Shown here piece by piece: positions 6,487-61,162 of a stretch of DNA of 64,000 nt; position 1 is the stretch's first letter; every line of letters starts with the position of its first letter. Origin of the DNA: Mycoplasma sp. CAG:776 (GTDB lineage Bacteria; Bacillota_I; Bacilli_A; RF39; UBA660). The DNA lies in contig FR903071.1 in NCBI GenBank assembly GCA_000438195.1, positions 87,394-151,393 on the forward strand, in the 5' to 3' direction. The notes under the pieces were generated by a model. The model did no database searches. It saw only the letters and a program-made list of their open reading frames with translations, and had not been told where the DNA came from. Position numbers and translations under genes: made by a program.

Positions 6487-7794
6487 TTAAATTTCATAAG
6501 GTGTGGAAGATGTTCCGTTTCCTGATTTTATAGTCACATCATGGGCCAGATTAATTACTGGGCGCACACCTAAAATATTTCCCATATTATCTCCTGCATA
6601 ATAGTAGTCTAAGCTTCCAGTTGCTGTTATAAAAAGTATTGCTGCTTGGCCTATATCTTGATCATCAAAACCATATGGCGTCATCGTCCAATAATATTGT
6701 TCAGTTCGTAGATAATAACTTTGGTTATTTGTCTTATAATTTCCGCCAGCATACACTACCTCATCTGCTGTAATAAGTCCGATTGGATTATCTAGTGCTC
6801 TGTTTCCTTTTTCACTTTCTTTTACTGTAAATAAATCTGTATTATTTTCACATTTTAAACTAGGATTTTTATTTTTTTCTAATCTATAATATGCTTTAAA
6901 ATATGTTTGCTTGCTCCCTATCCCTATTCCACTATCAAGACTTCGATCATTACAAAAGCCCTGACTCGTTTCTATATCTGAAACATAATTTGATAAGTTT
7001 TTAGTATACCAATTGTCTAGTAATTCTTTGATAGTGCTAGAATTAGTTAATCCATGCAGTTCGTTTAATGTATACATATATCCGACATATTCGCTTTTAT
7101 AATAATTTGAATTATAATAACTTTTGGCTATTTGAGCATTTGTATCATTATCTGTTGGACTTGTTCCTTGATAAATCATACGCACGCTCCCGTCTCCATT
7201 AATTCGAATTATCCTCCAATAATATCCTGCAAACTTTACATAATTATTCTCTACTGCACCTCTAAAATAATAACTTTCTCCCCAGTCATCTTCTGTTTTA
7301 TATATTCCCTCATCTGTTGTTGCTACCTGACTAAAATCTGGTTCTCCTTCATTTACTTTACTATTTGCTAATATTGCATCTTTTAATGTCTTTGACTCAA
7401 CAAAATATAAGTAACATCTTGTTCCTTTTTTTGACATTCCTAAAAAGTTGATTACTCCATTTTGATATTCTATTGTTATATTATTATCTTTCGTATCATT
7501 TACTTCACAATAACTTTTTTCTTCATTCAAACTATATCCACTTGTTGGTACGGTATCTATGCTTTCATAATCTCCATTTTCTTCTTGATACATCGCTACC
7601 ATTTTTAAATCATACGGTGTATAGTTGATTGTTCCATTCACTAATGGTATTGACTCAATAATTCGATATTTGGCTAAACTATTGTTAGTAATCAATACAA
7701 TAAGAAGTATTACTGCACAGACAAAACCACATAAAAAATATATTCTTTTTTTATTTCTTTTTAATGTTTCAAATTCTATACTTTCATTCTTCAA
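6487..7794 (-). CDS. Signal-anchored secreted/surface protein, paralog A of a duplicated family (conserved N- and C-termini, variable core)
   Basis: TTG start. N-terminal TM KKRIYFLCGFVCAVILLIVLITNNSLAKYR. C-terminal GVRPVINLAHDVTIKSGNGTSSTPYEI almost identical to 20174..21529. Shared central motif YYFRGAV-NN-VKFAGYYWRIIRINGDGS. Confidence 0.7.
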   Translation of the reverse strand: MKNESIEFETLKRNKKRIYFLCGFVCAVILLIVLITNNSLAKYRIIESIPLVNGTINYTPYDLKMVAMYQEENGDYESIDTVPTSGYSLNEEKSYCEVNDTKDNNITIEYQNGVINFLGMSKKGTRCYLYFVESKTLKDAILANSKVNEGEPDFSQVATTDEGIYKTEDDWGESYYFRGAVENNYVKFAGYYWRIIRINGDGSVRMIYQGTSPTDNDTNAQIAKSYYNSNYYKSEYVGYMYTLNELHGLTNSSTIKELLDNWYTKNLSNYVSDIETSQGFCNDRSLDSGIGIGSKQTYFKAYYRLEKNKNPSLKCENNTDLFTVKESEKGNRALDNPIGLITADEVVYAGGNYKTNNQSYYLRTEQYYWTMTPYGFDDQDIGQAAILFITATGSLDYYYAGDNMGNILGVRPVINLAHDVTIKSGNGTSSTPYEI

Positions 7795-7865
7795 TTTTAT
7801 TCCTACTTTCTTAAATAAAATTGAAAACTCTTAGCTATATTAAGTATAGCTGAAAAGATGTAAAT

Positions 7866-7890
7866 AGTCAATCAAAAATCGATTATTTTA
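7866..7890. promoter_or_regulatory. Dyad-symmetric candidate operator in the divergent promoter region between paralog A and its HTH regulator
   Basis: agtcaatcaaaaatcgattatttta (AATCA-N5-cGATT / AATCGATT palindrome). Repeated at 8447..8474 and partly conserved at ~21614. Confidence 0.35.
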
Positions 7891-7899
7891 GCCACTTTT

Positions 7900-8394
7900 A
7901 TGCTTGAAATAAATACGCATGAGAAAATATTAATGGTGAGAAGAATGAATTATGGAAAAATAATGAAAAATTTAAGAACTGAAAATTTATATTCCCAAGC
8001 ATTTATTGCAGAAAAAATGGGATTAAAAAGAAGTACATATAAAGAATATGAACTTCAAAACAGTATTATTCCTATTATCCATTTGAATGAATTCTGTAAC
8101 TTTTTCAACGTTTCTATCGACTATATTTTAGGACTAACAAGTAAGACAAATTATGAAAATTCTAAAATTGAAATAGATAAAAAAACGTCAGGACAAAGGT
8201 TAAAAGAATTAAGAAAAAAATATAAATTAACTCAAAAAGAATTAGCAAAGGTCTTAAATGTTGATATTTCTTTACCTTCTAAATATGAGCATGGAATTTA
8301 CCCAATAGCAACAACTTACCTTTATTCGCTATGTAAAAAATATAATGTCTCTGCTGATTATCTTTTAGGTAAGACAAATCATTTACATATATAA
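7900..8394 (+). CDS. Tandem-HTH XRE-family transcriptional regulator (paralog A), probably starting at an internal Met (~7933/7948)
   Basis: Two XRE HTH units, each ending in the typical ...SADYLLGKT. Divergent from the surface-protein gene. Paralog of 21640..22137. Confidence 0.75.
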   Translation: MLEINTHEKILMVRRMNYGKIMKNLRTENLYSQAFIAEKMGLKRSTYKEYELQNSIIPIIHLNEFCNFFNVSIDYILGLTSKTNYENSKIEIDKKTSGQRLKELRKKYKLTQKELAKVLNVDISLPSKYEHGIYPIATTYLYSLCKKYNVSADYLLGKTNHLHI

Positions 8395-8439
8395 TAGCTA
8401 AGAGTTATCAATTCTTATATTAATTATAAAGAACTTAAA

Positions 8440-8633
8440 TTAAAAAGTCAATCAAAAATTGATTATTTTAGCCAAAACGTTTTATGTAGAAGAAATTCCT
8501 ATTAATTTAATTTCCACTATTTTCTATATGATATATGCAAAAAGAGCAATATATCGCCAATTATCTTTTAGCTAAAATTGATAGTCCTAAATATCTTAAT
8601 AAATAGATATTTTTTATTTTAGTCATAGAAGTC
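8440..8633 (+). pseudogene. Decayed remnant of a third tandem-HTH regulator copy (operator plus 3' gene end retained)
   Basis: 8447..8474 repeats the upstream operator. 8560..8633 matches at DNA level the 3' end and downstream of HTH B (gattatcttttgggtaaaata...cctaaatatcttaa.taaata...ttttttattttagccatagaag). No intact ORF. Confidence 0.35.
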
Positions 8634-8666
8634 AAAAAGCGTCGAACTTTGTCGGACGCTTTTTCT
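8634..8666 (+). terminator. Rho-independent terminator
   Basis: agcgtc-gaactttgtcg-gacgct followed by ttttt. A degenerate copy lies at 22167..22195. Confidence 0.5.
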
Positions 8667-9172
8667 TGATTTTTAGTAAATTCAACTTCATAATATAGTC
8701 TTGAGCATTGGGACTGGTGTCTACTAGTTAGACAAATTTCTATTGTTTACCTCCTTTACTTAAGGGTTTTGGAAGACATAGAAAGGAGTTTTTTGATTAG
8801 TTAGTGAGGTTATTATCCAAACTTATAAATTGGTTTCAACCAAAAAAGACATCAACCATAATTATTGTTAAAAACAATATAACGGTTAATGTCTATCATA
8901 AACAAAAGTAGGCATTTAGACCTAATGCTCTACAAGTTAAGTATAATATATTTTTTTTATAAATTCAAGTTCAAATTGTTTCTTATTTCCTATAATAACC
9001 TCTGTTTCATTTTGTTCCTGGTTTTTTCATGAGATTTTACAAATATGATAATGTAAATTAAAGTAATACAAAACTACTATTGATTATAATTTGCTCATTT
9101 CTATCATTAGAGATGAAGATGAGAAAAGACGCTAAGTAGCGCCTCAAGACTATATTACAAGTATGTTTTTTA

Positions 9173-20173: not shown

Positions 20174-21529
20174 TTAAATTTCATACGGTGTTGAAGATGT
20201 TCCATTTCCACTTTTTATGGTAGCATTACTTGCTATATTGATAACAGGACGAACGCCATGCGTGACATCCACGCTCCAGGAGTCGAGGATGCCACCCGAA
20301 TGCACACGGGACACTTGAGCAGTACTGTTCGTCGCATAAAAGTAAGACGGAGACATAGTCCAATAAGTTTGTCCTGTATGTAGGTAGTAACTTTTATTAC
20401 TTCTTCCGCTTACTCCTCCAGCCATTGCTACTTCGTCTGCTGTAATGAGTCCTACTGGGTTTGTTAATGCTTTATTTCCTCTACTACTTCCACTTACTGT
20501 GTACATATCTTCATTATTCTTACATTTTAAACTTGGGCTTTCATTTATATTTAATCGGATATATCCTCCATAATAAGTTTTAGTTGTTCCTGTCCCTCCT
20601 TGTCCATTACTGGTTGTTTTACTTGTACTTGGCTCTCTATCTCCGCAGAATCCTGCTTCTGTACTTACCTTATCTCCATATCCTTTATTGGCTATATTAG
20701 TTTGATACCAGCTATCCAATGTATTCTTTATTCCACTATTTGTTCCAAGGCCATGTACTTGTCCTATCGTATACATATATCCTACATAAGCATTATTGTT
20801 ATACGTGTTACTGTCTATGGAAAATGTATTTGTTCCTATTTGTGTACCTGCTCCTGTTGTCGCTGTACTTGTTCCATTATAGATTAGTCTTATACTTCCA
20901 TCTCCATTGATCCTTATGATCCTCCAATAATACCCTGCAAACTTGACCCAGTTATTGTCCACTGCCCCTCTAAAGTAATAACTATCTCCCCAATCGTCTT
21001 GGGTTTTATATACTCCTTCGTCTTTTGTTGCTAAACTTCCAAAGTTTGGTGTTCCACTATTGATTTGATTATCTCTTTTAATGGCATCTGCTAATAATAT
21101 AGGTTGTTCATCAAAATACAGATAACATTTACTATTCTTTTTTAAGTTTCCTATTACATGTTCTCCATTAGAATTAGTATATAATACAGAACTGGTATCT
21201 TCATTTACATTATCGATTGTACAATAACTTTCTTCTTCATTTATGACATACCCACTACTTGGCATTTCTTCTATTTCTTTATATGTTCCATTTTCTTCTT
21301 GATACATTGCTATTACTTTAAAATCATATGGCGTATAATTGATTGTTCCATTTATCAAAGGTATACTTTGTGTTGTTCGATATTTTGCCAAACTATTGTT
21401 AGTAATCAATACAAGAAGAAGTATTACTACACAGACAAAACCACATAAAAAATATATTCTTTTTTTATTTGTTTTTAATGTTTCTATTTTCATAAGCCGC
21501 CTGCTTTCTATAATGATGCTAGGCTTCAT
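20174..21529 (-). CDS. Signal-anchored secreted/surface protein, paralog B (likely true start at internal MKIETLK, ~21492)
   Basis: Same conserved N-terminus (KKRIYFLCGFVCVVILLLVLITNNSLAKYR), same C-terminus (GVRPVINIASNATIKSGNGTSSTPYEI) and same central motif as paralog A. Gly/Thr-rich variable core. Confidence 0.7.
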   Translation of the reverse strand: MKPSIIIESRRLMKIETLKTNKKRIYFLCGFVCVVILLLVLITNNSLAKYRTTQSIPLINGTINYTPYDFKVIAMYQEENGTYKEIEEMPSSGYVINEEESYCTIDNVNEDTSSVLYTNSNGEHVIGNLKKNSKCYLYFDEQPILLADAIKRDNQINSGTPNFGSLATKDEGVYKTQDDWGDSYYFRGAVDNNWVKFAGYYWRIIRINGDGSIRLIYNGTSTATTGAGTQIGTNTFSIDSNTYNNNAYVGYMYTIGQVHGLGTNSGIKNTLDSWYQTNIANKGYGDKVSTEAGFCGDREPSTSKTTSNGQGGTGTTKTYYGGYIRLNINESPSLKCKNNEDMYTVSGSSRGNKALTNPVGLITADEVAMAGGVSGRSNKSYYLHTGQTYWTMSPSYFYATNSTAQVSRVHSGGILDSWSVDVTHGVRPVINIASNATIKSGNGTSSTPYEI

Positions 21530-21639
21530 TTTTATAATTACAAAAATAAACTATCATATAATATCATGATCAGTTTCCTAGCTTATAGTTAAATTATAAA
21601 TATAGCTATGGAAAAAGTCAAGAAAAATGTCGGTATTTT

Positions 21640-22137
21640 ATGAATAAAATTATCTTTTTTAATTTTAATGAGAAAATTGACTTGGTGAAAATTATGATGA
21701 ATTATGGAACAATTTTAAGAGAACTTAGAGAAGAAAAAAACTTATCACAAGCAGATATAGCATTACAACTTAACATTCAAGGTAAGGTTTATAGTCAATA
21801 CGAAACAGAATATACAATTATTCCTATTAAACATTTAATCATTTTGTCTGATTATTTTAATGTTTCTTTAGATTTTATTCTAGGATTTACTAAAATTAAA
21901 CAATATTCTAAAACTTCAAATATTCTTAAATGTAGATTAAAAGAATTTCGTAAAGAACATAAATTAACTCAGGAAAAGCTTGCTCAATTTTTAAATACTA
22001 CTCATTCTGTTATTGCTGATTATGAGAGAAATAGATATTTAATTGCTACACCTTTTCTTTATCAAATATGTAGGAAATATAATATCTCTGCTGATTATCT
22101 TTTGGGTAAAATAGACAATCCTAAATACCTTAAATAA
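21640..22137 (+). CDS. Tandem-HTH XRE-family transcriptional regulator (paralog B)
   Basis: Two XRE HTH units ending ...SADYLLGKI. Divergent from paralog B surface gene. Confidence 0.75.
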   Translation: MNKIIFFNFNEKIDLVKIMMNYGTILRELREEKNLSQADIALQLNIQGKVYSQYETEYTIIPIKHLIILSDYFNVSLDFILGFTKIKQYSKTSNILKCRLKEFRKEHKLTQEKLAQFLNTTHSVIADYERNRYLIATPFLYQICRKYNISADYLLGKIDNPKYLK

Positions 22138-22531
22138 ATATTTTTTATTTTAGCCATAGAAGTTAAAAAGCGTCGAATTTTGTCGGACATTTTTTCTTAA
22201 TTTTTTAGTGTTTTACTTCATAATAAATACCTGTTATTTACTGGTGGTAGCGCCTGCTTCATTTTGTTAGTAGTTTAAACTACTGAATTTTTTCAGTGGG
22301 GTTAAATGAAAGTTAGGTGATGTAAATGAGTGATACAAAATTATTGCTTATTATAATAATAATACTTCTTTCTATTATTAGAGATGAATAAAAAAAAGTC
22401 GCTAGCCAAAAGGCATAGCGCTTGCAAATAATGCAGGCGTTATCCACCAAGTGAATAACACTTACATTTATAATATAGTATATTGATAGAATTATTACAA
22501 GTATATTTTTCATAAAAATGTTAATTTTTTC

Positions 22532-22695: not shown

Positions 22696-23442
22696 TTATT
22701 TTTGCTTTTTTAACTTTATTTCATAAGTGTTTAATAATTCTTTTTCAACATTTCCTTTGTTTATCGTATAGCGATATTCTTCTAATAATAAATTTTCTTC
22801 TGTTTCTTTTTCTTCTAAAGCATAAATACTATTATCTTCAAATTTTGCAAGTATTTGAGTATTTTTATCATAAAAAATAGTTAGTTCTTCCCCATCTATG
22901 CTTTGATATTCTTTTGATTCATCATATATTAAAATATTTTCTAAAAGCATTTTCCCTTTATCATTCCAAACAAAATATTCTTCTTTTTCTTCTTTAATAT
23001 CTGAATAGACACTTATTAATAAATAATCTGTTTCTTTATCTTTCATTATCTTTATGTTTTCTTTATCTATTTTAATATTTTCATTTTGATTTTCAAATAT
23101 CTCATCTATTGTATCTGCTTCAAATTTATCATCAACTTCCATAGATAAAATTTCACGTCCATCTAAATAGAGCGTCAAATCGATTTTGGCATATTTTTTT
23201 TCAAAAGTTACTCGATAATTGCTTTTTAGTTTATGTCTTTTTCCATTTAATTGAATATTATATATTTCACTTAATTCGTTTTCAGTCATATTAGTAGATG
23301 CTTTTTCAATACTTTTGGTTTTTATTATTTCTTGTGCGCCTTTAATATCTTGATGGGTTAATGTATAAATTGTAAGAACTGCTATACCGGCTATAATAAC
23401 AGTTAAGATAATGATACTTAGTTTTTTCATAGAATTCCTCAC
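22696..23442 (-). CDS. Membrane-anchored protein, last gene of the pilin-like operon
   Basis: N-terminal TM (LSIIILTVIIAGIAVLTIYTL). 248 aa, Lys/Glu-rich extracytoplasmic region. Confidence 0.5.
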   Translation of the reverse strand: MRNSMKKLSIIILTVIIAGIAVLTIYTLTHQDIKGAQEIIKTKSIEKASTNMTENELSEIYNIQLNGKRHKLKSNYRVTFEKKYAKIDLTLYLDGREILSMEVDDKFEADTIDEIFENQNENIKIDKENIKIMKDKETDYLLISVYSDIKEEKEEYFVWNDKGKMLLENILIYDESKEYQSIDGEELTIFYDKNTQILAKFEDNSIYALEEKETEENLLLEEYRYTINKGNVEKELLNTYEIKLKKQK

Positions 23443-23506
23443 TTATTTAATATTATATCAACAAAAACCTTTTTTTAAAACAAAAAAGTTACTTTTTATT
23501 AAGTAA

Positions 23507-24502
23507 CTATTTAAATATATTAAATAATTTGGCTTTCCCTGAACTACTGCTATTTAATCTCGAAAAGCCTAAGGCTACTAAAAAATCATCCAATGTTTGT
23601 TCGTGTTCTTTTTTATCATCTAAATATGGTAAATTAAAAAATACTTTACTGTTTGCTTCACGTTCAAAATCATTGATATCTTTATTGGTTAAAACACTTT
23701 TATTTAATACTATTTTTTTATCTTTTAATTTTTCAAAGGCATCTCGATCTTGACGAATTAGTTTATTTAATTTAATTAAGCCTGGTTCGATTAAATATAT
23801 AATATCATTACATAAATTTCCTTGAGTAGAATCATTTAAATCTACTAATATTACCTCAGCTTCTGGATTATTAGCGATATTAAAAGCTAAATCTAAAGAT
23901 GTTGTTGATTTTAAGCTTTTATCATTAAAATACTTGAAGTCTTCTTTATCTACTTCTATTGCTACAACATTATAAGCAACTTCTAAATGTCTTTTTAACA
24001 TATATATAAGAGTGGTAGCTCCTGCATGAGCTGTAACATTTTTAAAGCCTACTATTCTTAATCCTCCACTTCCCGTTCCGGTAAATGTATCATATTCTAA
24101 TACTTCATTATTTGCATTTCCATTTAAATTGTGGTACTGAGCTACATCTTTGTAGGAGTTTGGATTATCAATTAAAAACTTTACAGCATTAATATTACGA
24201 GTAAAATTGTAAATCCCCATTGATACTAATCCTGATAAGTAGCCTCCGCTATTTACCATAGCTGAATCATCTAGTAATAAAATTAATTTGCTAGGATCAA
24301 AATTTACTGATAATTTTTGAATCGTTTTAATATTTTGATAACCTTTAATCGCAGTAATATCAATGATCATTTTATTAAAATAAAAATTTGTAAATATGTT
24401 GGCTAATTCTTCTATTTCATATTCCCCATTAATACTTTTTATTACATCAATGTCTAGTGTTGCTAACATATTTTGATATTTATTTGATACAATAACATTC
24501 AT
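23507..24502 (-). CDS. ParA/MinD-superfamily-like protein with degenerate Walker A (TadZ/CpaE-like?), in the pilin-like operon
   Basis: RIVGFKNVTAHAGATTLIYML...NVVAIEVD resembles a deviant Walker A lacking the Lys. 331 aa. Confidence 0.35.
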   Translation of the reverse strand: MNVIVSNKYQNMLATLDIDVIKSINGEYEIEELANIFTNFYFNKMIIDITAIKGYQNIKTIQKLSVNFDPSKLILLLDDSAMVNSGGYLSGLVSMGIYNFTRNINAVKFLIDNPNSYKDVAQYHNLNGNANNEVLEYDTFTGTGSGGLRIVGFKNVTAHAGATTLIYMLKRHLEVAYNVVAIEVDKEDFKYFNDKSLKSTTSLDLAFNIANNPEAEVILVDLNDSTQGNLCNDIIYLIEPGLIKLNKLIRQDRDAFEKLKDKKIVLNKSVLTNKDINDFEREANSKVFFNLPYLDDKKEHEQTLDDFLVALGFSRLNSSSSGKAKLFNIFK

Positions 24503-24516
24503 GCTATTCCCTCTTT

Positions 24517-25008
24517 CTAATCTCCAATTACATTTTCATATTGTTTATCATCTTGCGCTTGAAAATTGCTTGTTGTTCCTTTAATTGTAAAGCTTGATGT
24601 GTCCCCTATTATTGGTAAATTAAATTTATAAAAAATTGTAATTTGATAATAATTTGTTGTATTAGCTCCTTTATATTTTTTTACACAATAATAATATTTT
24701 TCTCCTTCACGAGCTGGTTCTAATTTAGTACTATTTAAGTCTAATGCACCATATACTCCCGTTTCAGAGTCGCCATTTGGTACACATACACCTTCAACAT
24801 CATATCCAGTATATAATAAATAATTATTTACTAATTCAATAGAGGCATCATTTAACCCTTCATATTTTTCAAACATATTTATTAATTCATTTTTTATTTT
24901 AACTGTTCGGGAATAATTTAAGGTTAATACAATAAATCCCACAAATAGTAAAATAAACAAAATCATTAATTGCAATAACCAAGTTCCACCAATTGTTTGT
25001 CTCATCAT
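24517..25008 (-). CDS. Pseudopilin/TadE-like secreted protein (paralog of 25008..25544)
   Basis: N-terminal MMRQTIGGTWLLQLMILFILLFVGFIVLTLNYSR, then Cys-containing domain. Start overlaps the upstream stop. Confidence 0.45.
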   Translation of the reverse strand: MMRQTIGGTWLLQLMILFILLFVGFIVLTLNYSRTVKIKNELINMFEKYEGLNDASIELVNNYLLYTGYDVEGVCVPNGDSETGVYGALDLNSTKLEPAREGEKYYYCVKKYKGANTTNYYQITIFYKFNLPIIGDTSSFTIKGTTSNFQAQDDKQYENVIGD

Positions 25009-25544
25009 TACACCCCACTACACCATGGGTAGCTATTAGGATCTCCACCCTTATCTACATCACATTCATTTGGTTCATAAATTCTTGCTGTTTCACCATA
25101 TATGCTAAACTCAAATAAATTTCTTATAACAGGTAAATCTAATTGATAGAAAACTTTTACTTGATAGTATAAGGCGTTTGGAAGTTCTGAATTGGAGTTT
25201 GCTCTAATTGCTTTTACACAGAATGCAGGATTTTGATTATCTAGTAATCCTTCTCTATTATATCCTACCCATCCAGTTTCATCATCACTATTACAAACTC
25301 CTGTACTACGATAATTTGCCTCTTTAAAATAATCACTTATTTGTTCTGAAAAATTAAAGCATTTAAAAGCGTCTGGAGTTTGTGAAGTACACACTCCTCC
25401 TTGGTTTTTAATAATATTTAAAATTTCATTTTTAACATTATATGCCTTAGAATAATTAATTGACATACTGATATATCCCGCAAACAGCAAAACAAATACT
25501 ATTACAATGTTAAATAAAGAAAAGCCACCAAATGCTTCTTTCAT
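25008..25544 (-). CDS. Pseudopilin/TadE-like secreted protein
   Basis: N-terminal MKEAFGGFSLFNIVIVFVLLFAGYISMSINYSK (GFSL resembles the prepilin G-F-T-L core, but without Glu+5). 8 Cys. Confidence 0.45.
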   Translation of the reverse strand: MKEAFGGFSLFNIVIVFVLLFAGYISMSINYSKAYNVKNEILNIIKNQGGVCTSQTPDAFKCFNFSEQISDYFKEANYRSTGVCNSDDETGWVGYNREGLLDNQNPAFCVKAIRANSNSELPNALYYQVKVFYQLDLPVIRNLFEFSIYGETARIYEPNECDVDKGGDPNSYPWCSGV

Positions 25545-29904: not shown

Positions 29905-29991
29905 GCCTGTGTGGCGGAATTGGTAGACGCGCTGGACTCAAAATCCAGTGGTAGCAATATCGTGTCGGTTCGAGTCCGACCACAGGCACCA
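29905..29991 (+). tRNA. tRNA-Leu (anticodon CAA), with encoded CCA
   Basis: 7-bp acceptor stem GCCTGTG/CACAGGC, anticodon loop CTCAAAA, long variable arm, T-loop GGTTCGAGTCC. 87 nt. Confidence 0.9.
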
Positions 29992-30063
29992 GAGGGAAAT
30001 CTGCTCGAACCGAAAAGGAAGAGCTTTCGATAAATGTCAATTCTATAGGGAATTGATTTTTTT

Positions 30064-30360
30064 GTGTTAGAAAGTGAGAAGATTTTCATGTTAAAGGTTG
30101 TAAAACAAGAAATTGAAATGGAAGCAGCTCTTAAAAAGAAGTTAGAATTTATATGTAGTTTCTGTAATATTACTCCCATTATCCAAAATGGAAGTATTAG
30201 AAAGTTAGAACAAACTAACTTAATTTATGTAGAACCTCATAGAATTATCATCAAAAATATTACTTTACTTGCCTTTAATTATGAGAGTAATCTTTATATT
30301 GAAAATTTAAGTAAAAGTATTCCATTAAAAGAATTAGAAAATTTTATTAAAACACTATAA
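30064..30360 (+). CDS. Hypothetical small protein (98 aa) at island edge
   Basis: ORF only. Confidence 0.3.
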   Translation: MLESEKIFMLKVVKQEIEMEAALKKKLEFICSFCNITPIIQNGSIRKLEQTNLIYVEPHRIIIKNITLLAFNYESNLYIENLSKSIPLKELENFIKTL

Positions 30361-30584
30361 AAAAACATGCACATCAATTCCTTATCTCCCATTTTACCTG
30401 GATTTTTTCTAAAAATTAGGAAAGAAAAATTATCATAACTTTACCCATAGACAAAACTAGATGTTTTGTTAAAATAAGTATGCTAGGAAAAAATATAATG
30501 ATTTCCACTTATTTAGATAACACAAACTATTTGTCTTGTGTTATTTTTTTATACTTTAAATGGATAGAAAGGATGATGTGATGA

Positions 30585-32488
<1,904 letters not shown>

Positions 32489-32726
32489 CTCTCCTAAATT
32501 TTTCTTTTTTTCTCATTTTTACAACTTTAAAAATTAAACAGGATATGATGTTTGCACCAGTTAAAAGAACCAACCCTTATTTTATAAGACTTTTTCTTTT
32601 ATTTTACTGGTGCCATTTTATTTTTGCACTTGCAAAAATAGATATAATTATATACAAAGTATATTACCTTTTTTAAAAAAAGCTAGGTAAATACTGATTT
32701 AATTTGTATTACTTTTTTATATAATT

Positions 32727-33173
32727 TTATTTTTTACTTTTCCCACAAACAGCACTCATTGAAATATGAAACTCTTTACAAAATTTATATAGATTGGAAG
32801 TAGAAATACATATAAGACCTTTTTCGTATCTAACAATACATGCTTGTGATACACCTAACAAGTCAGCAATATTTTCTTGAGACAAATTATGTTTTAGTCT
32901 AACTGCTTTCATATTATTACCTAATCTTTCTAGGTTCAATCCTTTATTTATTTTTGTGTTACGTTCATTTGTTAAACCAAGAACATAATCTATACTATAT
33001 TTAAAATAATCTGCATAATCACATAAGTTTTTAAGTGGAATAATGTTAATTCCTAATTCCCATAATGAATATGTAGAACGATTTACTTTTAGAATATTTG
33101 CCATTTTCTCTTGGCTAATGTCATTATCTTCTCTAATATCTTTTAATCTTGAAAAATCTATCATATACTTCAC
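32727..33173 (-). CDS. Tandem-HTH XRE-family regulator (island-encoded)
   Basis: Two XRE HTH units (ISQEKMANILKVNRSTYSLWE; LSQENIADLLGVSQACIVRYE). Confidence 0.7.
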   Translation of the reverse strand: MKYMIDFSRLKDIREDNDISQEKMANILKVNRSTYSLWELGINIIPLKNLCDYADYFKYSIDYVLGLTNERNTKINKGLNLERLGNNMKAVRLKHNLSQENIADLLGVSQACIVRYEKGLICISTSNLYKFCKEFHISMSAVCGKSKK

Positions 33174-33275
33174 CTAGGCTAATTATCGCATTAGGCGAAG
33201 AAAAAACATCAATATTGCTATTTACAGTTATATTTTCTGCTATTTTGTGTTATAATTAATAATTAGAAAGAAGGC

Positions 33276-33635
33276 GTGGAAATGACAAAATATTTATCAT
33301 TAAAAGAAAATGAAGAATTAATTATAGGAATGGATCAAAAGCCAAAAGTAGTTAGAATCAAAAATAAAAATAATAAATTACAAATAAGTGAGATTACTCC
33401 TGAAGAAATAACAGACAATATTGTAATTACAGAATTAAATTTTGATGAATTAAAAAGTTTTGTGTTGTACGAAAGTTATTATCAAGAAGTATCTAACCTT
33501 GATATAGATAAGGAAATAATGCAAAAAAATAATGATATATGTGAATATCATTATAAAAAAATTTATGGTGATAATTATAACGAAGATATATCAAATACTA
33601 AGTTTCAAGTTATTATTACTTTTGGCAAGAAATAG
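33276..33635 (+). CDS. Hypothetical protein (119 aa)
   Basis: ORF divergent from the XRE gene. Confidence 0.35.
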   Translation: MEMTKYLSLKENEELIIGMDQKPKVVRIKNKNNKLQISEITPEEITDNIVITELNFDELKSFVLYESYYQEVSNLDIDKEIMQKNNDICEYHYKKIYGDNYNEDISNTKFQVIITFGKK

Positions 33636-33729
33636 AATTTGAAAAAAGTTAACTCTAATCTTAAAAACAGGAAAATAATTTATAATCTACTTAATAAATT
33701 GCTTATTAAATCTTTATTAATTTGTGTCG

Positions 33730-34332
33730 TTAACTTTTTTGCGTTTCTTTTTTTCCGCAACAATACCGATATGGTCTACCGCTTCCACACGGACATTTCT
33801 TTTTGCCATTTTTCTTTTCTTCATATAAATGTAATTGGTGATTTTTTTTAGCAATTTGCCTATTATAATTGTCAATATCTTCTACAAAATCATATTTTTT
33901 ACATGATGGAATTCTAAAGGTAAAGGTTGTTTTACCATCTGTATTTGAAATTGCAAAATCGCCTAATTGAATAACGTCCATTCCAATAAGAGCATCAGCA
34001 CCATGTATTTCTGGTATTTCTGTAACTTTCACAGAGTTAATAACTACACCATTGGGGACAAGTATATCTACCAAATATACATTTTGGGATACTAAACCAC
34101 CAGCAGTGTGAACTTCAGCTTTTGAAATTGGAATTAAATTGCATTTTTTTGCTATATTTGAACTTATTGCGCTTGTTGTCGCTCCAGTATCCCAAATTCC
34201 TATTCCTGTTACTTCTATAGCATTTGCATTCTTAAAAGAAGAAGAAAATGAAACTTTTGTTAAAAGTACTGGAGTAATTTTTTCATAAGGAACTGTAAAA
34301 GCATGCCTAATTTCTTTTTTCGATTTATCCAT
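33730..34332 (-). CDS. Retropepsin-like aspartic protease domain protein with C-terminal SEC-C zinc-binding motif
   Basis: D-T-G-A active-site motif (GIWDTGATTSAIS) and C-terminal CPCGSGRPYRYCCG. Confidence 0.6.
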   Translation of the reverse strand: MDKSKKEIRHAFTVPYEKITPVLLTKVSFSSSFKNANAIEVTGIGIWDTGATTSAISSNIAKKCNLIPISKAEVHTAGGLVSQNVYLVDILVPNGVVINSVKVTEIPEIHGADALIGMDVIQLGDFAISNTDGKTTFTFRIPSCKKYDFVEDIDNYNRQIAKKNHQLHLYEEKKNGKKKCPCGSGRPYRYCCGKKETQKS

Positions 34333-34569
34333 TTAAAAAATTGCCCTCGTGTGAAAAACCTGAATACTATTTTGATCTTCTTTTTCACATTTCTGTATAA
34401 TAAACGTTCCCATTTCTAATTCAGAGGCATAAGTAATTGCCTTTTGTTCTTCTTTGCTGGCAAATATTACCTCTTGATTAGCTATTACTATATATTGTCC
34501 TTTATATTTTTTTAACAATTCCTTTAAATTGGCTTTAAACCATTTATAGTTTCTATCAACTTCATTCAT
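34333..34569 (-). CDS. Small hypothetical protein (78 aa) translationally coupled to the retropepsin-like gene
   Basis: Stop/start adjacent (34332/34333). Confidence 0.4.
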   Translation of the reverse strand: MNEVDRNYKWFKANLKELLKKYKGQYIVIANQEVIFASKEEQKAITYASELEMGTFIIQKCEKEDQNSIQVFHTRAIF

Positions 34570-34722
34570 AGCAAAAACTCCTTTCTTTTAAGTTAGAAAT
34601 ATATTATACTCTATGATCATTAGTTTTACAATATTAATATATCATATTTTTTTTTTTTTTTAAAGCCAAATGTTTAAACTTTAAAAAATTTTATTATTTT
34701 TTACACTACATCATAATTTTGT

Positions 34723-34800
34723 GTTAAAATATTATTAGATTTGAGATTTATCGACCTATTTTAATCTTAAAGGTTCTAAATAGGCTACTCTCTCGCACCA
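34723..34800 (+). repeat. 78-bp direct repeat, copy 1 (upstream of fic)
   Basis: Near-identical to 36047..36124 (2 mismatches). Ends in ...tctcgcacca. Confidence 0.6.
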
Positions 34801-34953
34801 AATTGAATTTTACTCAAAATTTTGAGTTATTATTGCACAATAATTGTGCAAAAAGCATATTTTTTTTATAAAAATGCACATTATTTCATAGATATTGTGC
34901 GTTTTTCTTTACTTTCTAGACTGAATATAGTAATATATTAAGGAGGTGAGAAA

Positions 34954-36033
34954 ATGGATCCTATAAAAGTTAAAAAATTACCACTTGAATATAAACTAGA
35001 TAAAGAGTTAATGAATTTGATTTCAGAAGCTAATTTAAAATTTGGAGAATACAAATCAAATTTAAAAAACAGTCAATTTGATTCAAGATTTTTTTTAGAC
35101 TCTATTATTTTAAGTGAAAGTTTAAAATCAACACAAATAGAGGGTACTCAAATTTCACAAGATGATATGTATTATTTAAAATATATGCCTAAAACAGATG
35201 ATAATTTAGAAATACAAAACTTAAAAAAGGTAATTGATTTTGCCAAAATGCATTTAAAAGATAATCATAAAATTGATATTAAATTCATTAATGATATTCA
35301 TAAGATATTATTAAATAGTGTTCGTGGAAATGAAAAAGATCCCGGGCATATTAGAACTACTCAAAATTGGATTGGCCCAAAAGGCTGTACGATTGAAGAA
35401 GCAACATTTATTCCGCCTATACCAGAAGAAGTTCCAATTTTGTTAAACAATTTATTTGAATATATGAATGATGCTTATGTTGATCCTATATTTATCAATT
35501 TGGCAATATCTCATTCACAATTTGAAACTATACATGCTTACTGTGATGGTAATGGTAGACTTGGTAGAGCACTCATTCCTGTTCAATTAGCTCTTTTAAC
35601 CGAAGAAGAACCAATTTTATTTTTATCAGAAGTAATTGAATTATATAAGCCTACTTATTATAAACTTTTAAACGAAAGTAGAAAAGGCAATATGTTGGGA
35701 TTTATAAAGTTTTTTTTGCAATGTATAATTGATCAATGCAATAATTATATTGCAAAAATAAATAGAATTAACCAAATTTATAATAAAGATATGGAAAAAA
35801 TTAAAATATTAAAAAGTAATGCTGTATATCGGATTATGCCTGCCATTATGAGACAAATTGTTTTTACAAAAAAAGAAATCGTAGAAGAGTCATCAGTTTC
35901 TAGAAATACTGTGTCTATATTAATAGACAAATTAGTAGAATTAAATATTTTAGAACCAGATTCTAATTATGCTAAGTTAGGTTATAGATACAATGAAATT
36001 TATAATGTCTTTGTGGGGAAAGATATGTCATAA
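34954..36033 (+). CDS. fic: Fic/Doc family protein (class II, with N-terminal inhibitory SxxxEG motif); AMPylase-type
   Basis: Fic motif HAYCDGNGRLGR. N-terminal STQIEG matches the (S/T)xxxE(G/N) inhibitory helix. 359 aa. Confidence 0.85.
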   Translation: MDPIKVKKLPLEYKLDKELMNLISEANLKFGEYKSNLKNSQFDSRFFLDSIILSESLKSTQIEGTQISQDDMYYLKYMPKTDDNLEIQNLKKVIDFAKMHLKDNHKIDIKFINDIHKILLNSVRGNEKDPGHIRTTQNWIGPKGCTIEEATFIPPIPEEVPILLNNLFEYMNDAYVDPIFINLAISHSQFETIHAYCDGNGRLGRALIPVQLALLTEEEPILFLSEVIELYKPTYYKLLNESRKGNMLGFIKFFLQCIIDQCNNYIAKINRINQIYNKDMEKIKILKSNAVYRIMPAIMRQIVFTKKEIVEESSVSRNTVSILIDKLVELNILEPDSNYAKLGYRYNEIYNVFVGKDMS

Positions 36034-36046
36034 AAATTTAAAGTAT

Positions 36047-36124
36047 GTTAAAATATTATTAGATTTGAGATTTATCGACCTATTTTAATCTTAAAGGTTT
36101 TAAATAGGCTACTTTCTCGCACCA
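36047..36124 (+). repeat. 78-bp direct repeat, copy 2 (downstream of fic), running straight into the 25-bp island-boundary repeat
   Basis: See copy 1. Confidence 0.6.
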
Positions 36125-36309
36125 GAGGGAAATAGCCTCGAACTATTCGAATTTTAATATATAGAAATCAATCGAAATGATTGATTTTTATCGTTATTAT
36201 CTAATGTTTTTCTTGATTATTTAAATAAATTAAGTTACAGTATACATTTTTATTTATTAATGAAAAAGACCAATTGTAGCAGTTGGTCTAATCGATAAAA
36301 TATAGTTTG

Positions 36310-36825
36310 TTATTTATTTCTTTTTACAAATATTATTCCTAATATTATAGTTATTGTTATAACTATAATTGGGGCAAATCTAAAGAATATCCATTCAAAT
36401 GAATGCCATATCGTTCCAATAACAGTCCATTCAGCATCATTGTAATCCCATGATTGATATGGACTATTTAATATTATGAATAAAATAAATAATAATATTA
36501 AAAATACATCAGCAATTATTAATGTATTAATCATTAGTTTTCTCTTTTGTTTTCGTTTCATTGATAATTGTTCATTTATAACTTCTAATTTTTCGGATAT
36601 TACTTGTAAGTCATTTTTTTCTTTTTCCTTGATGTTCTCACCTAGAATTTCACTAACCGGTGTTTCAAAAATTGTTGATATAGTTATTAACATTTCCGCA
36701 TCTGGAACAGATAAGCCTGACTCCCATTTTGAAATTGTTTGTCTAACAACATTTAATTTAATACTTAACTCTTCTTGGGAAAGTCCTTTTTGTTTTCTTA
36801 ATGCTTTTAAATTATCTTTTAACAT
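36310..36825 (-). CDS. XRE-family HTH protein with C-terminal transmembrane segments
   Basis: N-terminal HTH (LSQEELSIKLNVVRQTISKWESG), then 2 TMs. Terminator hairpin 36267..36289. Confidence 0.6.
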   Translation of the reverse strand: MLKDNLKALRKQKGLSQEELSIKLNVVRQTISKWESGLSVPDAEMLITISTIFETPVSEILGENIKEKEKNDLQVISEKLEVINEQLSMKRKQKRKLMINTLIIADVFLILLFILFIILNSPYQSWDYNDAEWTVIGTIWHSFEWIFFRFAPIIVITITIILGIIFVKRNK

Positions 36826-52200: not shown

Positions 52201-52274
52201 TGGAGGGGCCTACCGGATTTGAACCGGTGCTCGGGGAGTTGCAGTCCCATGCCTTACCACTTGGCTAAAGCCCC
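52201..52274 (-). tRNA. tRNA-Cys (anticodon GCA), with encoded CCA
   Basis: Reverse complement GGGGCTTTAGCCAAGTGGTAAGGCATGGGACTGCAACTCCCCGAGCACCGGTTCAAATCCGGTAGGCCCCTCCA: acceptor and T-arm pair perfectly, anticodon loop CTGCAAC. Confidence 0.85.
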
Positions 52275-58762: not shown

Positions 58763-61162
58763 TTATTTTACAACAATATTAACTATTTTTCCTTTTACAA
58801 TAATAATTTTAATAATTTCTTTATTTTCAAGATGTTTTTTTACATTTTCATTTGATAAAGCTTTTCTTTTTATTTGTTCCTCATCTTCGTCTTTAGAAAT
58901 GTTAATTTCTCCTCTTAATTTTCCATTTACTTGTACACCAATTGTTATTTCATTATCAATTGTTTTTTCTTCATCATATACTGGCCATGTAGATTCACAA
59001 AGTGGTTTATATCCTAACATTTCGTTTAATTCTTCAGTAATGTGAGGGGCTATAGGATTTAAAAGTGTTAATAAAACTTGATAATCTTTTTTAGTAATTT
59101 CTTCTTTTTCTTCATATTTATTTGCTAAAATCATTAGTGTTGATACGGCTGTATTATATCCTAAATGACTTAAATCATATTCTACTTTCTTTATACTTTT
59201 ATTGATAATTACTTCTAAATCTTTAGAATATTCTTCTTTATTAATAACTCTATCCTTTAAACGAATAATTTTATCAATAAATCTTTTACATCCTTTTAGA
59301 GAATCTGTACTCCATGGACTATCTTGTTCATAGTCTCCCATAAACATTTCATATACTCTTAGAGTATCTGCTCCAAATTCACGAACGATATCGTCGGGAT
59401 TAATTACATTTCCTTTAGATTTACTCATTTTTTGATTATCACTACCTAAAACCATTCCATGACTAACACGAGTATCTATCATTTCCTTATTTGGAACTAA
59501 CCCAATATTATATAAGAATTGAACCCAAAATCTAGCATATAACAAATGTCTTGCAGTATGTTCCATTCCACCATTATACCAGTTTACTTTATTCCAATAT
59601 TTCATGTTTTCCATTGAAGCAAATTCTTTAGTATTATGAGGATCCATAAATCTTAAGAAATACCATGATGATCCTGCCCAGTTCGGCATAGTATCAGTTT
59701 CTCTTTTGGCTGCAGCTCCACATTTTGGACATGTTGTATTTACCCAATCAGTAATTTTAGCTAAAGGAGACTCACCATTATCAGTTGGTTCATATTCGGC
59801 TACATCTGGAAGTAATAAAGGTAAATCGCTTTCTTTCATTGGCACCCATCCACAATGCTCGCAATAAATCATTGGAATTGGTTCTCCCCAAAATCTTTGT
59901 CTTGAGAAAATCCAGTCACGCATTTTATAATTTACTTTCTTTTTACCACAGTTATTTTCCTCTAAATAATCTAACATTTTATTAATAGCGTCTTCTTTAT
60001 TTAAACCATCCAAGAAGCTAGAATTAATATGAATACCATCTCCTTCATAAGCACTTTCTTCAATATTAATCTCCTCATTTTCACCTTTTAATACTTGAAT
60101 AATTGGAATATTAAACTTTTTAGCAAATGCATAGTCTCGACTATCATGAGCAGGTACAGCCATAATTGCTCCAGTTCCATAGCTTGCTAAAACATAATCA
60201 CTTATGTAAATAGGAATTTTTTTATTATTTACAGGGTTAATGGCATAAGCCCCAATAAATACACCTGTTTTTTCTTTATTTAATTCTGTTCTTTCCATCT
60301 CATTCTTTAGAGAACATTCCTCTTGATATTTTTTTACTTCTTCTTCTTTTTCTTTAGAAGTTATCTTATTTACTAGAGGATGTTCTGGCGATAAAACGCA
60401 GTATGTAGCTCCAAAAAGAGTATCACATCTCGTTGTAAATACTGTAAATGCTTCATCAAAGCCATCTACTTTAAAATCTACTTCTGCTCCAATTGATTTA
60501 CCAATCCAATTGATTTGTCCTAATTTTACTTTAGGAGCAAAGTTTGTATCTTCTAAACCATTTAATAAATCCTCAGCATAATCACTCATTCTAAGCATCC
60601 ATTGGCTTTTATTTTTTTGAACTACTTGAGTACCACATCTTTCACATACTCCGCCAGCAGCATCCTCATTTGACAATACAGTTTTACAATTAGGGCACCA
60701 ATTTACTGGCACGGTTGCTTTATAGGCCATATCATGTTTATAAAATTGTAAAAATTGCCATTGTGTCCATTTATAATATTCTGGATCAGTAGTAGAAAAC
60801 TCTCTATCCCAATCAAAAGAGAACCCTAATGTTTTCATTTGTCTTTTGAAAGTCTTGATATTTTCCTTTACGGCTTCTTTAGGGTGAATATGATTTTTAA
60901 TTGCATATTGTTCGGCTGGAGCACCAAAGGCATCCCATCCCATTGGAAATAAAACATTTTCTCCTTGCATTCTCTTCATTCTTGCAATAGCGTCTTGAGC
61001 CGTATAACTTCTTACATGTCCAACATGTAACCCAGATCCTGATGGATATGGAAATTCTACTAATATATAATAGGGATTTTTATCATTTTTCTCTATTGCT
61101 TTAAATGATTTATGCTCCTCCCAATAATTTTGCCATTTTTTTTCTATTTCTTGATAATTCAT
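58763..61162 (-). CDS. leuS: Leucine--tRNA ligase
   Basis: HVGH (class I HIGH variant), KMSKS, editing domain. 799 aa. Confidence 0.95.
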   Translation of the reverse strand: MNYQEIEKKWQNYWEEHKSFKAIEKNDKNPYYILVEFPYPSGSGLHVGHVRSYTAQDAIARMKRMQGENVLFPMGWDAFGAPAEQYAIKNHIHPKEAVKENIKTFKRQMKTLGFSFDWDREFSTTDPEYYKWTQWQFLQFYKHDMAYKATVPVNWCPNCKTVLSNEDAAGGVCERCGTQVVQKNKSQWMLRMSDYAEDLLNGLEDTNFAPKVKLGQINWIGKSIGAEVDFKVDGFDEAFTVFTTRCDTLFGATYCVLSPEHPLVNKITSKEKEEEVKKYQEECSLKNEMERTELNKEKTGVFIGAYAINPVNNKKIPIYISDYVLASYGTGAIMAVPAHDSRDYAFAKKFNIPIIQVLKGENEEINIEESAYEGDGIHINSSFLDGLNKEDAINKMLDYLEENNCGKKKVNYKMRDWIFSRQRFWGEPIPMIYCEHCGWVPMKESDLPLLLPDVAEYEPTDNGESPLAKITDWVNTTCPKCGAAAKRETDTMPNWAGSSWYFLRFMDPHNTKEFASMENMKYWNKVNWYNGGMEHTARHLLYARFWVQFLYNIGLVPNKEMIDTRVSHGMVLGSDNQKMSKSKGNVINPDDIVREFGADTLRVYEMFMGDYEQDSPWSTDSLKGCKRFIDKIIRLKDRVINKEEYSKDLEVIINKSIKKVEYDLSHLGYNTAVSTLMILANKYEEKEEITKKDYQVLLTLLNPIAPHITEELNEMLGYKPLCESTWPVYDEEKTIDNEITIGVQVNGKLRGEINISKDEDEEQIKRKALSNENVKKHLENKEIIKIIIVKGKIVNIVVK

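What the first reader, a model, noticed from the sequence alone, without database searches (positions are those of the whole stretch)
6487..8394. Duplicated divergent gene pair: variable surface protein plus tandem-HTH regulator (copy A)
Genes 6487..7794 (-) and 20174..21529 (-) share a near-identical N-terminal signal-anchor region (~60 aa) and a near-identical 27-aa C-terminus (GVRPVIN...KSGNGTSSTPYEI). They also share a central YYFRGAV..VKFAGYYWRIIRINGDGS motif, but their cores differ. Each is divergently paired with a paralogous double-HTH XRE regulator (7900..8394 and 21640..22137). The intergenic region carries a dyad AATCA-N5-TGATT-like site. Conserved termini with a diversified core and a dedicated repressor suggest a regulated, diversifying surface or contact-dependent protein family, possibly phase-variable or a strain-specific host/phage interaction factor. 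I cannot place the protein in any named family.
Basis: partly seen in the sequence, partly recalled or inferred. Interest (0 to 1): 0.7.

Follow-up and report, generated by a model that had tools for sequence, protein, structure and literature searches.

The report
Repressor-paired surface lectin-like gene family
Two old copies of a two-gene unit, a membrane-anchored lectin-like surface protein beside its own small DNA-binding regulator, belong to a very large, unstudied, many-copies-per-genome family in uncultured gut bacteria, probably a repertoire of separately controlled binding proteins.

Summary
The gene pairs are real, but several details need correcting. pA (6487-7794) and pB (20174-21493) align over their full length (54% identity), so they do not have unrelated cores. 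DNA identity is only 70-75% and the neighbouring genes differ, so this is an old duplication. The conserved termini are family-wide features.

The protein can be placed. It has an N-terminal membrane anchor, an Ig-like sandwich and a ~290-aa enlarged C-type-lectin-like domain of the DUF6273 kind. [quoted passage not shown]

The family is very large: 9,914 cluster representatives, and at least 8-11 copies per genome in uncultured gut Bacilli. It is mosaic, with a hypervariable stretch (residues 373-408) near the domain's C-terminal end, which is broadly where diversity-generating retroelements (DGRs) vary phage DUF6273 proteins.

About 80% of copies have a divergent XRE regulator, which may be tandem, single or split. 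Strong back-to-back promoters are conserved. A perfect inverted repeat over the -10 box of the pA promoter (7833-7851) is a better operator candidate.

I found no sign of phase variation or of a DGR. The proposed function (a regulated adhesin or lectin repertoire) is inferred, not shown.

The parts
6487..7794 (-). pA, 435 aa, TTG start. Membrane helix at residues 15-39 (7678-7752). Conserved juxtamembrane segment at 41-62. Ig-like beta-sandwich at 63-135 (7390-7608). Enlarged C-type-lectin-like DUF6273-type domain at ~141-435 (6490-7374).
6571..6678 (-). Hypervariable stretch of pA, residues 373-408, just before the conserved GVRPVINL motif.
   Evidence: Mean pairwise identity is 0.37 here against 0.68-0.69 in the flanking segments. 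Some pairs are 93-100% identical over residues 1-300 but only 19-39% identical here.
7790..7825 (-). Stem-loop in the pA 5' leader (15 pairs in the single-sequence fold). The ribosome-binding site lies in the loop and the TTG start codon lies in the 3' arm.
   Evidence: dG -12.7 kcal/mol, z -4.37, 0 of 200 shuffles fold as well. The structure is kept in L001, L014 and L044: 14 consensus pairs, 2 of them compensatory. It appears as a perfect 12-nt inverted repeat (I13).
7843..7871 (-). Sigma-70-type promoter of pA, TTGACT-17-TATACT.
   Evidence: 10 of 12 matches. The homologous promoter scores 9-12 of 12 (mostly 10-12) upstream of nearly all family members. The conserved AAAGTCAAGAAAAAT motif is its -35 box plus an A-tract.
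7833..7851 (.). Perfect inverted repeat AGCTATA-N5-TATAGCT over the -10 box of the pA promoter. This is my candidate operator.
   Evidence: It is the only perfect match in the window. With up to 2 mismatches, 0.86 matches are expected by chance. Copy B and many loci have a related repeat flanking the -10 box. Binding is inferred.
7870..7884 (.). It is imperfect and lies directly upstream of the -35 box.
   Evidence: 12 matches against 10.75 expected by chance. It is not present in copy B.
7920..7947 (+). Candidate extended -10 promoter TGAGAAAAT (7920-7928), ribosome-binding site GGTGA (7935-7939) and probable true start ATG (7945) of rA.
   Evidence: The TGAGAAAAT...GGTGA...ATG arrangement is conserved in more than 12 loci. 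Read from the sequence; not tested.
7945..8394 (+). rA, a tandem-HTH XRE regulator, ~149 aa. The ORF is open from 7900.
   Evidence: Two HTH_3 domains, E 1.4e-20. 47% identical to rB. Independent gene callers give 143 aa.
8380..8606 (.). Decayed third module. It has an orphan p-type promoter TTGACT-17-TATAAT (8451..8423, minus strand, antisense to rA), a perfect dyad AATCAAAAATTGATT (8450-8464), and a remnant of a regulator C-terminus (8535-8606).
   Evidence: 8441-8474 is a 94% copy of 7861-7894, and 8505-8695 is 79% identical to 22037-22225.
8634..8664 (+). Terminator-like hairpin (GCGTC...GACGC with flanking A and T runs) downstream of the regulator remnant. Copy B has the same element at about 22166-22195.
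   Evidence: Sequence, within the homologous block. The terminator scan did not call it.
20174..21493 (-). pB, 439 aa from M13. The ORF is open to 21529.
   Evidence: Identical to P0039, which its sources name only 'unknown [Mycoplasma sp. CAG:776]'.
21593..21621 (-). Promoter of pB, TTGACT-17-TATAAT. The arms TAGCTTATA (21579-21587) and TATAGCTA (21601-21608) flank its -10 box.
   Evidence: 11 of 12, the best site in that region. Sequence.
21513..21529 (-). Palindrome or hairpin ATGAAGC-CTA-GCATCAT in the pB leader. This is the B-type leader element.
   Evidence: AAATGAAG-N5-7-CTTCAT is conserved about 15 nt before the ribosome-binding site in more than 30 loci.
21694..22137 (+). rB, a tandem-HTH XRE regulator, ~147 aa. 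The ORF is open from 21640. TGAGAAAAT lies at 21669-21677.

Best explanation
pA and pB are two anciently diverged members of a very large, uncharacterised family of surface proteins from uncultured gut Bacilli.

Each protein is held in the membrane by an N-terminal helix, with a short basic tail inside the cell. Outside the cell it displays an Ig-like sandwich and then a ~290-aa enlarged C-type-lectin-like domain of the DUF6273 type. Related lectin-like folds serve as ligand-binding domains in phage receptor-binding proteins. I therefore take it to be a ligand-binding protein (an adhesin or lectin). Its specificity would be set mainly by the hypervariable stretch near the C-terminal end of the domain.

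Genomes carry many dispersed copies. These differ by mosaic recombination and by this stretch.

Each copy forms a two-gene module with a divergently transcribed XRE regulator. The two promoters sit back to back within about 150 bp. I infer that the regulator represses the strong promoter of its neighbour by binding the inverted repeat that overlaps or flanks the -10 box. That would put each family member under separate control. Leader hairpins add a second, translational layer of control.

Shown: gene structures, fold, family size, copy number, mosaicism, the conserved pairing and the conserved promoters.

Inferred: ligand binding, repression, the identity of the operator, and independent control of each copy.
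For: - Full-length homology of pA and pB.
- AF2 model with a membrane helix, a beta-sandwich and a large alpha/beta domain.
- 28 of 52 family members match PF19789 at E<=0.01.
- The module repeats 2 to 11 times in larger proteins. Some of these also carry fn3, Listeria-Bacteroides-repeat or ALK/LTK glycine-rich domains.
- 9,914 cluster representatives match. There are 574 confirmed loci, with at least 8-11 per genome assembly.
- Segment identities are only weakly correlated, and residues 373-408 are hypervariable. DGR variable regions map to the C-terminus of DUF6273 in phages (PMC11792537).
- A divergent tandem-HTH regulator is present at 32 of 62 loci. By my reading of the upstream ORFs, 18 more have single or split HTH genes.
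- Strong conserved promoters and an inverted repeat over the -10 box.
- A leader hairpin.
Against: - No ligand, expression or binding data exist.
- pA itself does not match PF19789, and pB matches only at E 0.069.
[quoted passage not shown] The fold match therefore gives a scaffold, not a function.
- The conserved element next to the -10 box (TATAAGCTAG) is also present at loci with other regulator types. It may not be the regulator's operator.
- About 12 of 62 loci show no recognisable HTH gene upstream in my reading.
- The regulator could be an activator, or could regulate only itself.
Confidence: 0.6

Rival explanations
1. One reading: a phase-variable or antigenic-variation system. Individual copies would switch ON and OFF through DNA-level changes (slipped-strand repeats or promoter inversion), or through bistable repressor circuits, so that the cell changes its surface.
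For: - Many paralogs per genome, each with its own regulator.
- Mosaic recombination and a hypervariable stretch.
- Module remnants show turnover.
- A 35-nt, 77% complementary inverted repeat brackets rA (I1).
- A breakpoint inside the p gene between two otherwise identical loci.
Against: - No repeats or homopolymers above the background rate of 1.9 per kb.
- The repeat bracketing rA is imperfect. It is better explained as the leader fragment of the decayed neighbouring module.
- The only recombinase in the window belongs to a separate integrated element.
- The exact pA and pB proteins recur on 16 and 21 independent contigs, with unchanged context at the places shown.
- Epigenetic bistability cannot be tested from sequence.
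Confidence: 0.15
2. A module derived from a mobile element or prophage. A phage-type repressor would be paired with a protein like a receptor-binding or superinfection-exclusion protein, and the pair would spread by insertion.
For: - The regulators score best against phage repressor families: phrog_8 at E 1e-29 to 7e-34, and RstR.
- DUF6273 is common in phage receptor-binding proteins (PMC10743442, PMC11792537).
- pA matches phrog_9958 at E 3e-5.
- Modules are dispersed between unrelated housekeeping genes and leave remnants.
- A third tandem-HTH paralog sits inside an integrated element.
Against: - No integrase, structural or replication genes lie next to either copy.
- No flanking direct repeats appear in the self-comparison of the window.
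- No match to a defence-system model for pA or pB.
- The membrane anchor does not fit a virion protein.
Confidence: 0.1
3. A signalling pair. The membrane protein would sense an external ligand through its lectin-like domain and control the HTH regulator through its short, conserved cytoplasmic tail.
For: - The cytoplasmic tail is conserved (the (E/K)(F/I)ETLK motif; K12 is conserved in at least 90% of members).
- The regulator has no sensor domain of its own.
- The two genes are tightly paired.
Against: - The tail is only about 14 residues long.
- The regulator partner varies in type (tandem, single or split) while the tail stays the same.
- About a fifth of loci show no recognisable HTH gene upstream.
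Confidence: 0.07
4. A target of a diversity-generating retroelement, or the product of a recent segmental duplication.
For: - The fold is the one used by DGR variable proteins.
- The most variable stretch lies near the C-terminal end of the domain, as in phage DUF6273 targets (PMC11792537).
Against: - No template-like repeat of either 3' end exists in the window.
- There are no systematic template-like repeats next to the p genes in the fetched loci. Only 7 stray short hits were found, and two in L001 look like p-gene fragments.
- None of the 30 window ORFs scanned with Pfam is a reverse transcriptase.
- The variants differ by insertions and deletions.
- The two copies are only 70-75% identical in DNA and have different neighbours.
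Confidence: 0.03

Closest known systems
N-terminal domain (residues 31-322, DUF6273) of Thomasclavelia ramosa IgA protease (PDB 9qa6)
   Different: In the protease, the domain precedes an M64 metallopeptidase domain and the protein is sortase-anchored at its C-terminus. Here there is no peptidase domain, the anchor is an N-terminal membrane helix, and an Ig-like domain comes first. The function of the protease's N-terminal domain is unknown and it is dispensable for IgA cleavage (PMC12237041).
DUF6273-type DGR target proteins of gut phages (tentaclins; Faecalibacterium prophage targets) and C-type-lectin-fold variable proteins (Mtd, TvpA, TaqVP)
   Different: Here the diversity comes from many paralogs and recombination, not from a reverse transcriptase and template repeat. 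The proteins are cellular and membrane-anchored, not virion parts.
Multigene variable surface protein families of Mollicutes and other host-associated bacteria
   Same: There are many dispersed paralogs per small genome, with conserved N-terminal anchor and C-terminal regions, mosaic cores and gene remnants. This comparison rests on my own knowledge of those families.
   Different: Those systems switch through repeats, inversions or gene conversion, and are mostly lipoproteins. Here each gene has a dedicated divergent XRE regulator and no DNA switch was found.
Phage-type XRE repressors (the RstR and phrog_8 class)
   Same: Each half of rA and rB is a standard HTH_3 domain. The regulator gene and its target are transcribed divergently, as in Cro/CI-type control regions.
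   Different: Two HTH domains lie in one ~148-aa chain, with no oligomerisation or sensor domain. They are paired with a surface-protein gene rather than with lytic functions.

Membership tests
DUF6273 (Pfam PF19789) | Match to the Pfam profile at or above its gathering score (23.5 bits) | tested here: inconclusive
   pA gives no match. pB gives E 0.069 and 13.4 bits. 28 of 52 close homologs match at E<=0.01, best 2.1e-6. The relatives P0144 and P0167 score 27.4 and 32.9 bits. The family is therefore a divergent branch, and the two window proteins themselves fall below the cut-off.
DUF6273 (Pfam PF19789) | Same fold as a solved DUF6273 domain | tested here: met
Canonical C-type lectins (calcium-dependent carbohydrate-recognition domains) | Compact CTLD fold with two helices, a long loop, conserved disulfides and a calcium/sugar-binding motif | tested here: not met
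DGR variable proteins | A template repeat matching the variable region, and a nearby reverse transcriptase | tested here: not met
   No repeat of either gene's 3' end exists in the window. There are no systematic repeats outside the p genes in the fetched loci. None of the 30 window ORFs scanned with Pfam is a reverse transcriptase. The rest of the genome was not available.
XRE / HTH_3 transcriptional regulators | HTH_3 domain above the Pfam gathering score | tested here: met
   rA scores 73.5 bits and rB 89.1 bits against a cut-off of 23. Each has two matched stretches.
M64 IgA metallopeptidases | M64 catalytic domain with the HExxHxxxGxxD zinc motif | tested here: not met
   No peptidase family matches pA, pB or any of the 52 homologs. 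I attribute the structural match to the non-catalytic N-terminal domain, because the next best hits are C-type-lectin folds.
Phase-variable surface genes (slipped-strand or invertible-promoter type) | A simple-sequence repeat in the promoter or 5' coding region, or a promoter flanked by good inverted repeats with a nearby invertase | tested here: not met
   The longest homopolymer is 7 nt, at background density, and there are no short tandem repeats. The only long inverted repeat is 77% complementary. No invertase lies next to either module.
SipW-dependent (TasA/camelysin-type) secreted proteins | Match to the SipW-cognate signal-peptide model or to TasA-family models | tested here: not met
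   I noticed a resemblance of AKYRTTES..NGTINY to TasA-type N-termini from memory. No NCBIfam match appeared, even at E<=10, for three N-terminal fragments or for the full proteins.

The most novel reading that the evidence does not exclude
The family is a 'one gene, one repressor' array. Each of ten or more lectin-like surface variants per genome would be held off by its own cognate XRE repressor, with a leader hairpin as a second layer. Cells would then express single variants or chosen combinations without any DNA rearrangement. This would be a transcription-based counterpart of antigenic or adhesive variation. The binding loop that varies between paralogs would be the same region that phages diversify with retroelements.
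Probability: 0.2. Interest if true: 0.75.

Novelty: new variant of a known kind. Interest (0 to 1): 0.5.

Why it matters
These uncultured, small-genome gut Bacilli are common in human and animal guts. How they attach to the host, to mucus or to partner microbes is unknown. This family is their obvious candidate for surface recognition. It has thousands of members and at least 8-11 copies per genome. Its most variable stretch lies in the part of the domain that phage retroelements diversify. It also gives the DUF6273 domain of the T. ramosa IgA protease a large cellular context. The conserved pairing with a private regulator is a simple circuit that can be tested directly. It may explain how a repertoire of binding proteins is deployed without DNA switches.

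Tried and rejected
- **Sequence matches:** pA and pB have no Pfam or NCBIfam match above cut-off. A profile search of PDB sequences gave only a chance hit.
- **Foldseek:** Searches with the whole multi-domain model against PDB and BFVD were uninformative. The afdb50 library was unavailable.
- **Defence system:** There are no PADLOC matches for pA or pB. The regulators gave only generic HTH matches.
- **DGR:** No template repeat and no reverse transcriptase were found.
- **Recent segmental duplication or gene conversion:** DNA identity is 70-75% with no near-identical tracts.
- **SipW/TasA-type signal:** No match.
- **Known RNA families in the shared flanks:** Rfam found nothing near either module.
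- **Leader peptide in the B-type leader:** Rejected, because the small ORF is not conserved. It stops after two codons in L004 and is fused in frame in pB.
- **Conserved third gene after the regulators:** No conserved small ORF, only a decayed regulator remnant.
- **Literature:** Searches found no description of this family.
Full report
**1. The observation**

Both ORFs are present: pA at 6487-7794 (minus strand, 435 aa) and pB at 20174-21529 (minus strand, 451 aa). They align over their whole length at 54% identity (E 2e-148). They are full-length paralogs, not conserved ends around unrelated cores. By my count, the first ~60 residues are 80% identical and the last 27 are 85% identical.

rA (7900-8394) and rB (21640-22137) are 47% identical. 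Each has two HTH_3 domains.

Three coordinate corrections follow from comparison with relatives:
- pB most likely starts at M13 (21493). From there it is identical to P0039, a protein its sources name only 'unknown [Mycoplasma sp. CAG:776]'.
- The regulators most likely start at 7945 and 21694. Each start follows a GGTGA ribosome-binding site, which in turn follows a conserved TGAGAAAAT element.

At DNA level the two modules are only 68-79% identical, in patches. Their neighbours are different housekeeping genes. pA lies among an HU gene, ABC transporter genes and a P-type ATPase gene. pB lies among FtsW, MurD and glucosaminidase genes. The duplication is therefore old and limited to the module plus a few hundred bases after the regulator.

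**2. The conserved termini are a family property**

In an alignment of 52 homologs, the pA-versus-pB identity profile follows family-wide conservation (r = 0.53). The juxtamembrane AKYRTTESIPLVNGTINY segment, the YYFRGAV...YWRIIRINGDGS block and the GVRPVINL...GNGTSSTPYEI tail are conserved across the family.

**3. What the protein is**

pA and pB match no Pfam or NCBIfam model above cut-off. An AlphaFold2 model built on the alignment (pLDDT 77.6, pTM 0.72) shows three parts:
- a membrane helix at residues 15-39, preceded by a basic tail;
- a beta-sandwich at 66-133;
- a large alpha/beta domain from about 160 to the C-terminus.

Sequence evidence agrees:
- pB has a sub-threshold DUF6273 match.
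- 28 of 52 homologs match DUF6273 at E<=0.01.
- The more distant relatives P0144 and P0167 exceed the gathering score.

The ~720-aa relatives contain two tandem copies of residues ~141-435. This fixes the module boundary. In still larger proteins the module repeats up to 11 times. Some of these proteins also carry fn3, Listeria-Bacteroides-repeat or ALK/LTK glycine-rich domains. These co-occurring domains are, to my knowledge, typical of extracellular proteins, which fits an extracellular binding module.

**4. Size and dynamics of the family**

The word-indexed search saturated at 7,980 hits. The exhaustive profile search found 9,914 50%-identity cluster representatives at E<=1e-3, and 3,360 at E<=1e-30.

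Among species-representative genomes, 574 stretches were confirmed. All of the best 80 come from uncultured gut Bacilli, 'Tenericutes' or 'Mycoplasma sp.' assemblies, apart from two binned under other names. Individual assemblies carry at least 8-11 copies.

The window encodes MurD, FtsW, an LCP protein, SpoVAD and SirA. Its organism is therefore a walled, probably spore-forming Bacillota, not a true mycoplasma.

Pairwise identities of different segments are only weakly correlated (r 0.06-0.36 between modules). Residues 373-408 are the most variable part (mean identity 0.37, against 0.68-0.69 on either side). Thirteen pairs are at least 95% identical in the Ig-like domain yet at most 40% identical in 373-408.

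One such pair was examined at DNA level (L085 and L086). The two loci are 100% identical for 3.3 kb, which covers the regulator and roughly the first 270-330 codons of the gene. Identity then falls to about 65%, and the downstream flanks are unrelated. This is either recombination between paralogs or an assembly chimera.

In phage DUF6273 proteins the DGR variable region maps to the C-terminus of the domain (PMC11792537). The variable stretch here lies in the same general part of the domain. The exact loop correspondence was not mapped.

I found no DGR:
- no template-like repeat in the window;
- no systematic template-like repeats next to the p genes in the fetched loci;
- no reverse transcriptase among the 30 window ORFs scanned with Pfam.

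**5. The regulator pairing**

I examined the 62 copies that have at least 750 bp of upstream sequence. Of these, 32 have a divergent tandem-HTH gene starting 119-285 bp away. By my reading of the upstream ORFs, 18 of the other 30 have a divergent single-HTH gene or two tandem single-HTH genes. That makes about 80% in total. The pairing is conserved, but the type of regulator is not.

**6. The control region**

Almost every copy has a strong sigma-70-type promoter (9-12 of 12 matches, mostly 10-12). For pA it is TTGACT-17-TATACT (7871..7843). For pB it is TTGACT-17-TATAAT (21621..21593). The widely conserved AAAGTCAAGAAAAAT motif is the -35 box of this promoter plus an A-tract.

It is absent from copy B.

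A perfect AGCTATA-N5-TATAGCT repeat (7833-7851) covers the -10 box of the pA promoter. It is the only perfect match in the window. Copy B and many other loci have a related repeat flanking the -10 box. This is my operator candidate, but the related TATAAGCTAG element also occurs at loci with other regulator types.

The pA leader folds into a 15-bp hairpin that contains the start codon (z -4.4). The hairpin is kept, with two compensatory pairs, in three relatives. B-type leaders carry a conserved ATGAAG-N5-7-CTTCAT palindrome.

**7. No evidence for phase variation**

- There are no simple-sequence repeats and no homopolymers above background.
- There is no convincing invertible segment.
- The exact pA and pB proteins recur on 16 and 21 independent metagenome contigs, with the same gene context at the places shown.

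**8. A decayed third module**

Directly after rA lies the remnant of another module. It consists of:
- a 94% copy of 7861-7894;
- an orphan p-type promoter (8451..8423), antisense to rA;
- a perfect version of the dyad (8450-8464);
- the remnant of a regulator C-terminus (8535-8606).

Locus L001 shows two intact tandem regulators and p-gene fragments. Modules are therefore gained and lost over time.

**9. Verdict**

The protein does belong to a named but uncharacterised domain family. The 'conserved ends, different core' pattern is not special to this pair. The proposed operator is not supported. Phase variation has no support.

The best-supported reading is a large repertoire of membrane-anchored, lectin-like binding proteins, each with a private XRE regulator. 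Function and regulation remain inferred.

Noticed in passing
window 8380-8606: A decayed third module lies directly after rA. It has a 94% copy of 7861-7894, an orphan strong promoter (8451..8423, minus strand) pointing antisense into rA, a perfect AATCAAAAATTGATT dyad, and a 23-aa remnant of a regulator C-terminus. A 17-nt piece of the pA leader is present here in inverted orientation.
   Followed up: partly
window 7790-7825 (minus-strand RNA): The pA leader forms a 15-bp AU-rich hairpin that encloses the ribosome-binding site in its loop and the TTG start codon in its 3' arm (z -4.4). It is kept, with two compensatory pairs, in L001, L014 and L044. It may act as a translational control element or RNA thermometer.
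   Followed up: partly
window 21513-21529, and more than 30 loci (for example L004, L015, L020, L064): A conserved AAATGAAG-N5-7-CTTCAT palindrome sits about 15 nt before the ribosome-binding site in B-type leaders, whatever regulator type is adjacent. I cannot tell whether it is an RNA hairpin or a DNA site.
   Followed up: partly
L085 versus L086: Two metagenome loci are 100% identical in DNA for 3.3 kb, covering the upstream gene, the HTH gene and most of the p gene. They then drop to about 65% identity and have unrelated downstream flanks. This is a breakpoint inside the p gene, from either recombination or assembly chimerism.
   Followed up: partly
window 29905-36825: tRNA-Leu is followed by a large serine recombinase (30779-32488), a third tandem-HTH paralog (32727-33173, 34% identical to rA), a Fic-domain protein (34954-36033) and an HTH protein with a predicted membrane-spanning C-terminal region (36310-36825). 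A 79-nt direct repeat at 97% identity flanks the Fic gene (34722-34800 and 36046-36124). This is probably an integrated mobile element.
   Followed up: partly
window 8666-8694 and about 22190-22225: After the terminator-like hairpin downstream of each regulator there is a conserved plus-strand promoter-like element (TTGATT-17-CATAAT in copy A). Further homologous segments follow (9051-9134 and 22320-22404). They have no conserved ORF and no Rfam match.
   Followed up: partly
window 61590-61766 (minus strand): A T-box leader (96.6 bits) lies upstream of the 799-aa ORF 58763-61162. tRNA-Cys is at 52201-52274.
   Followed up: no
window 22696-25544: Four consecutive minus-strand ORFs (248, 331, 163 and 178 aa) beside the B module have no Pfam match.
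   Followed up: no
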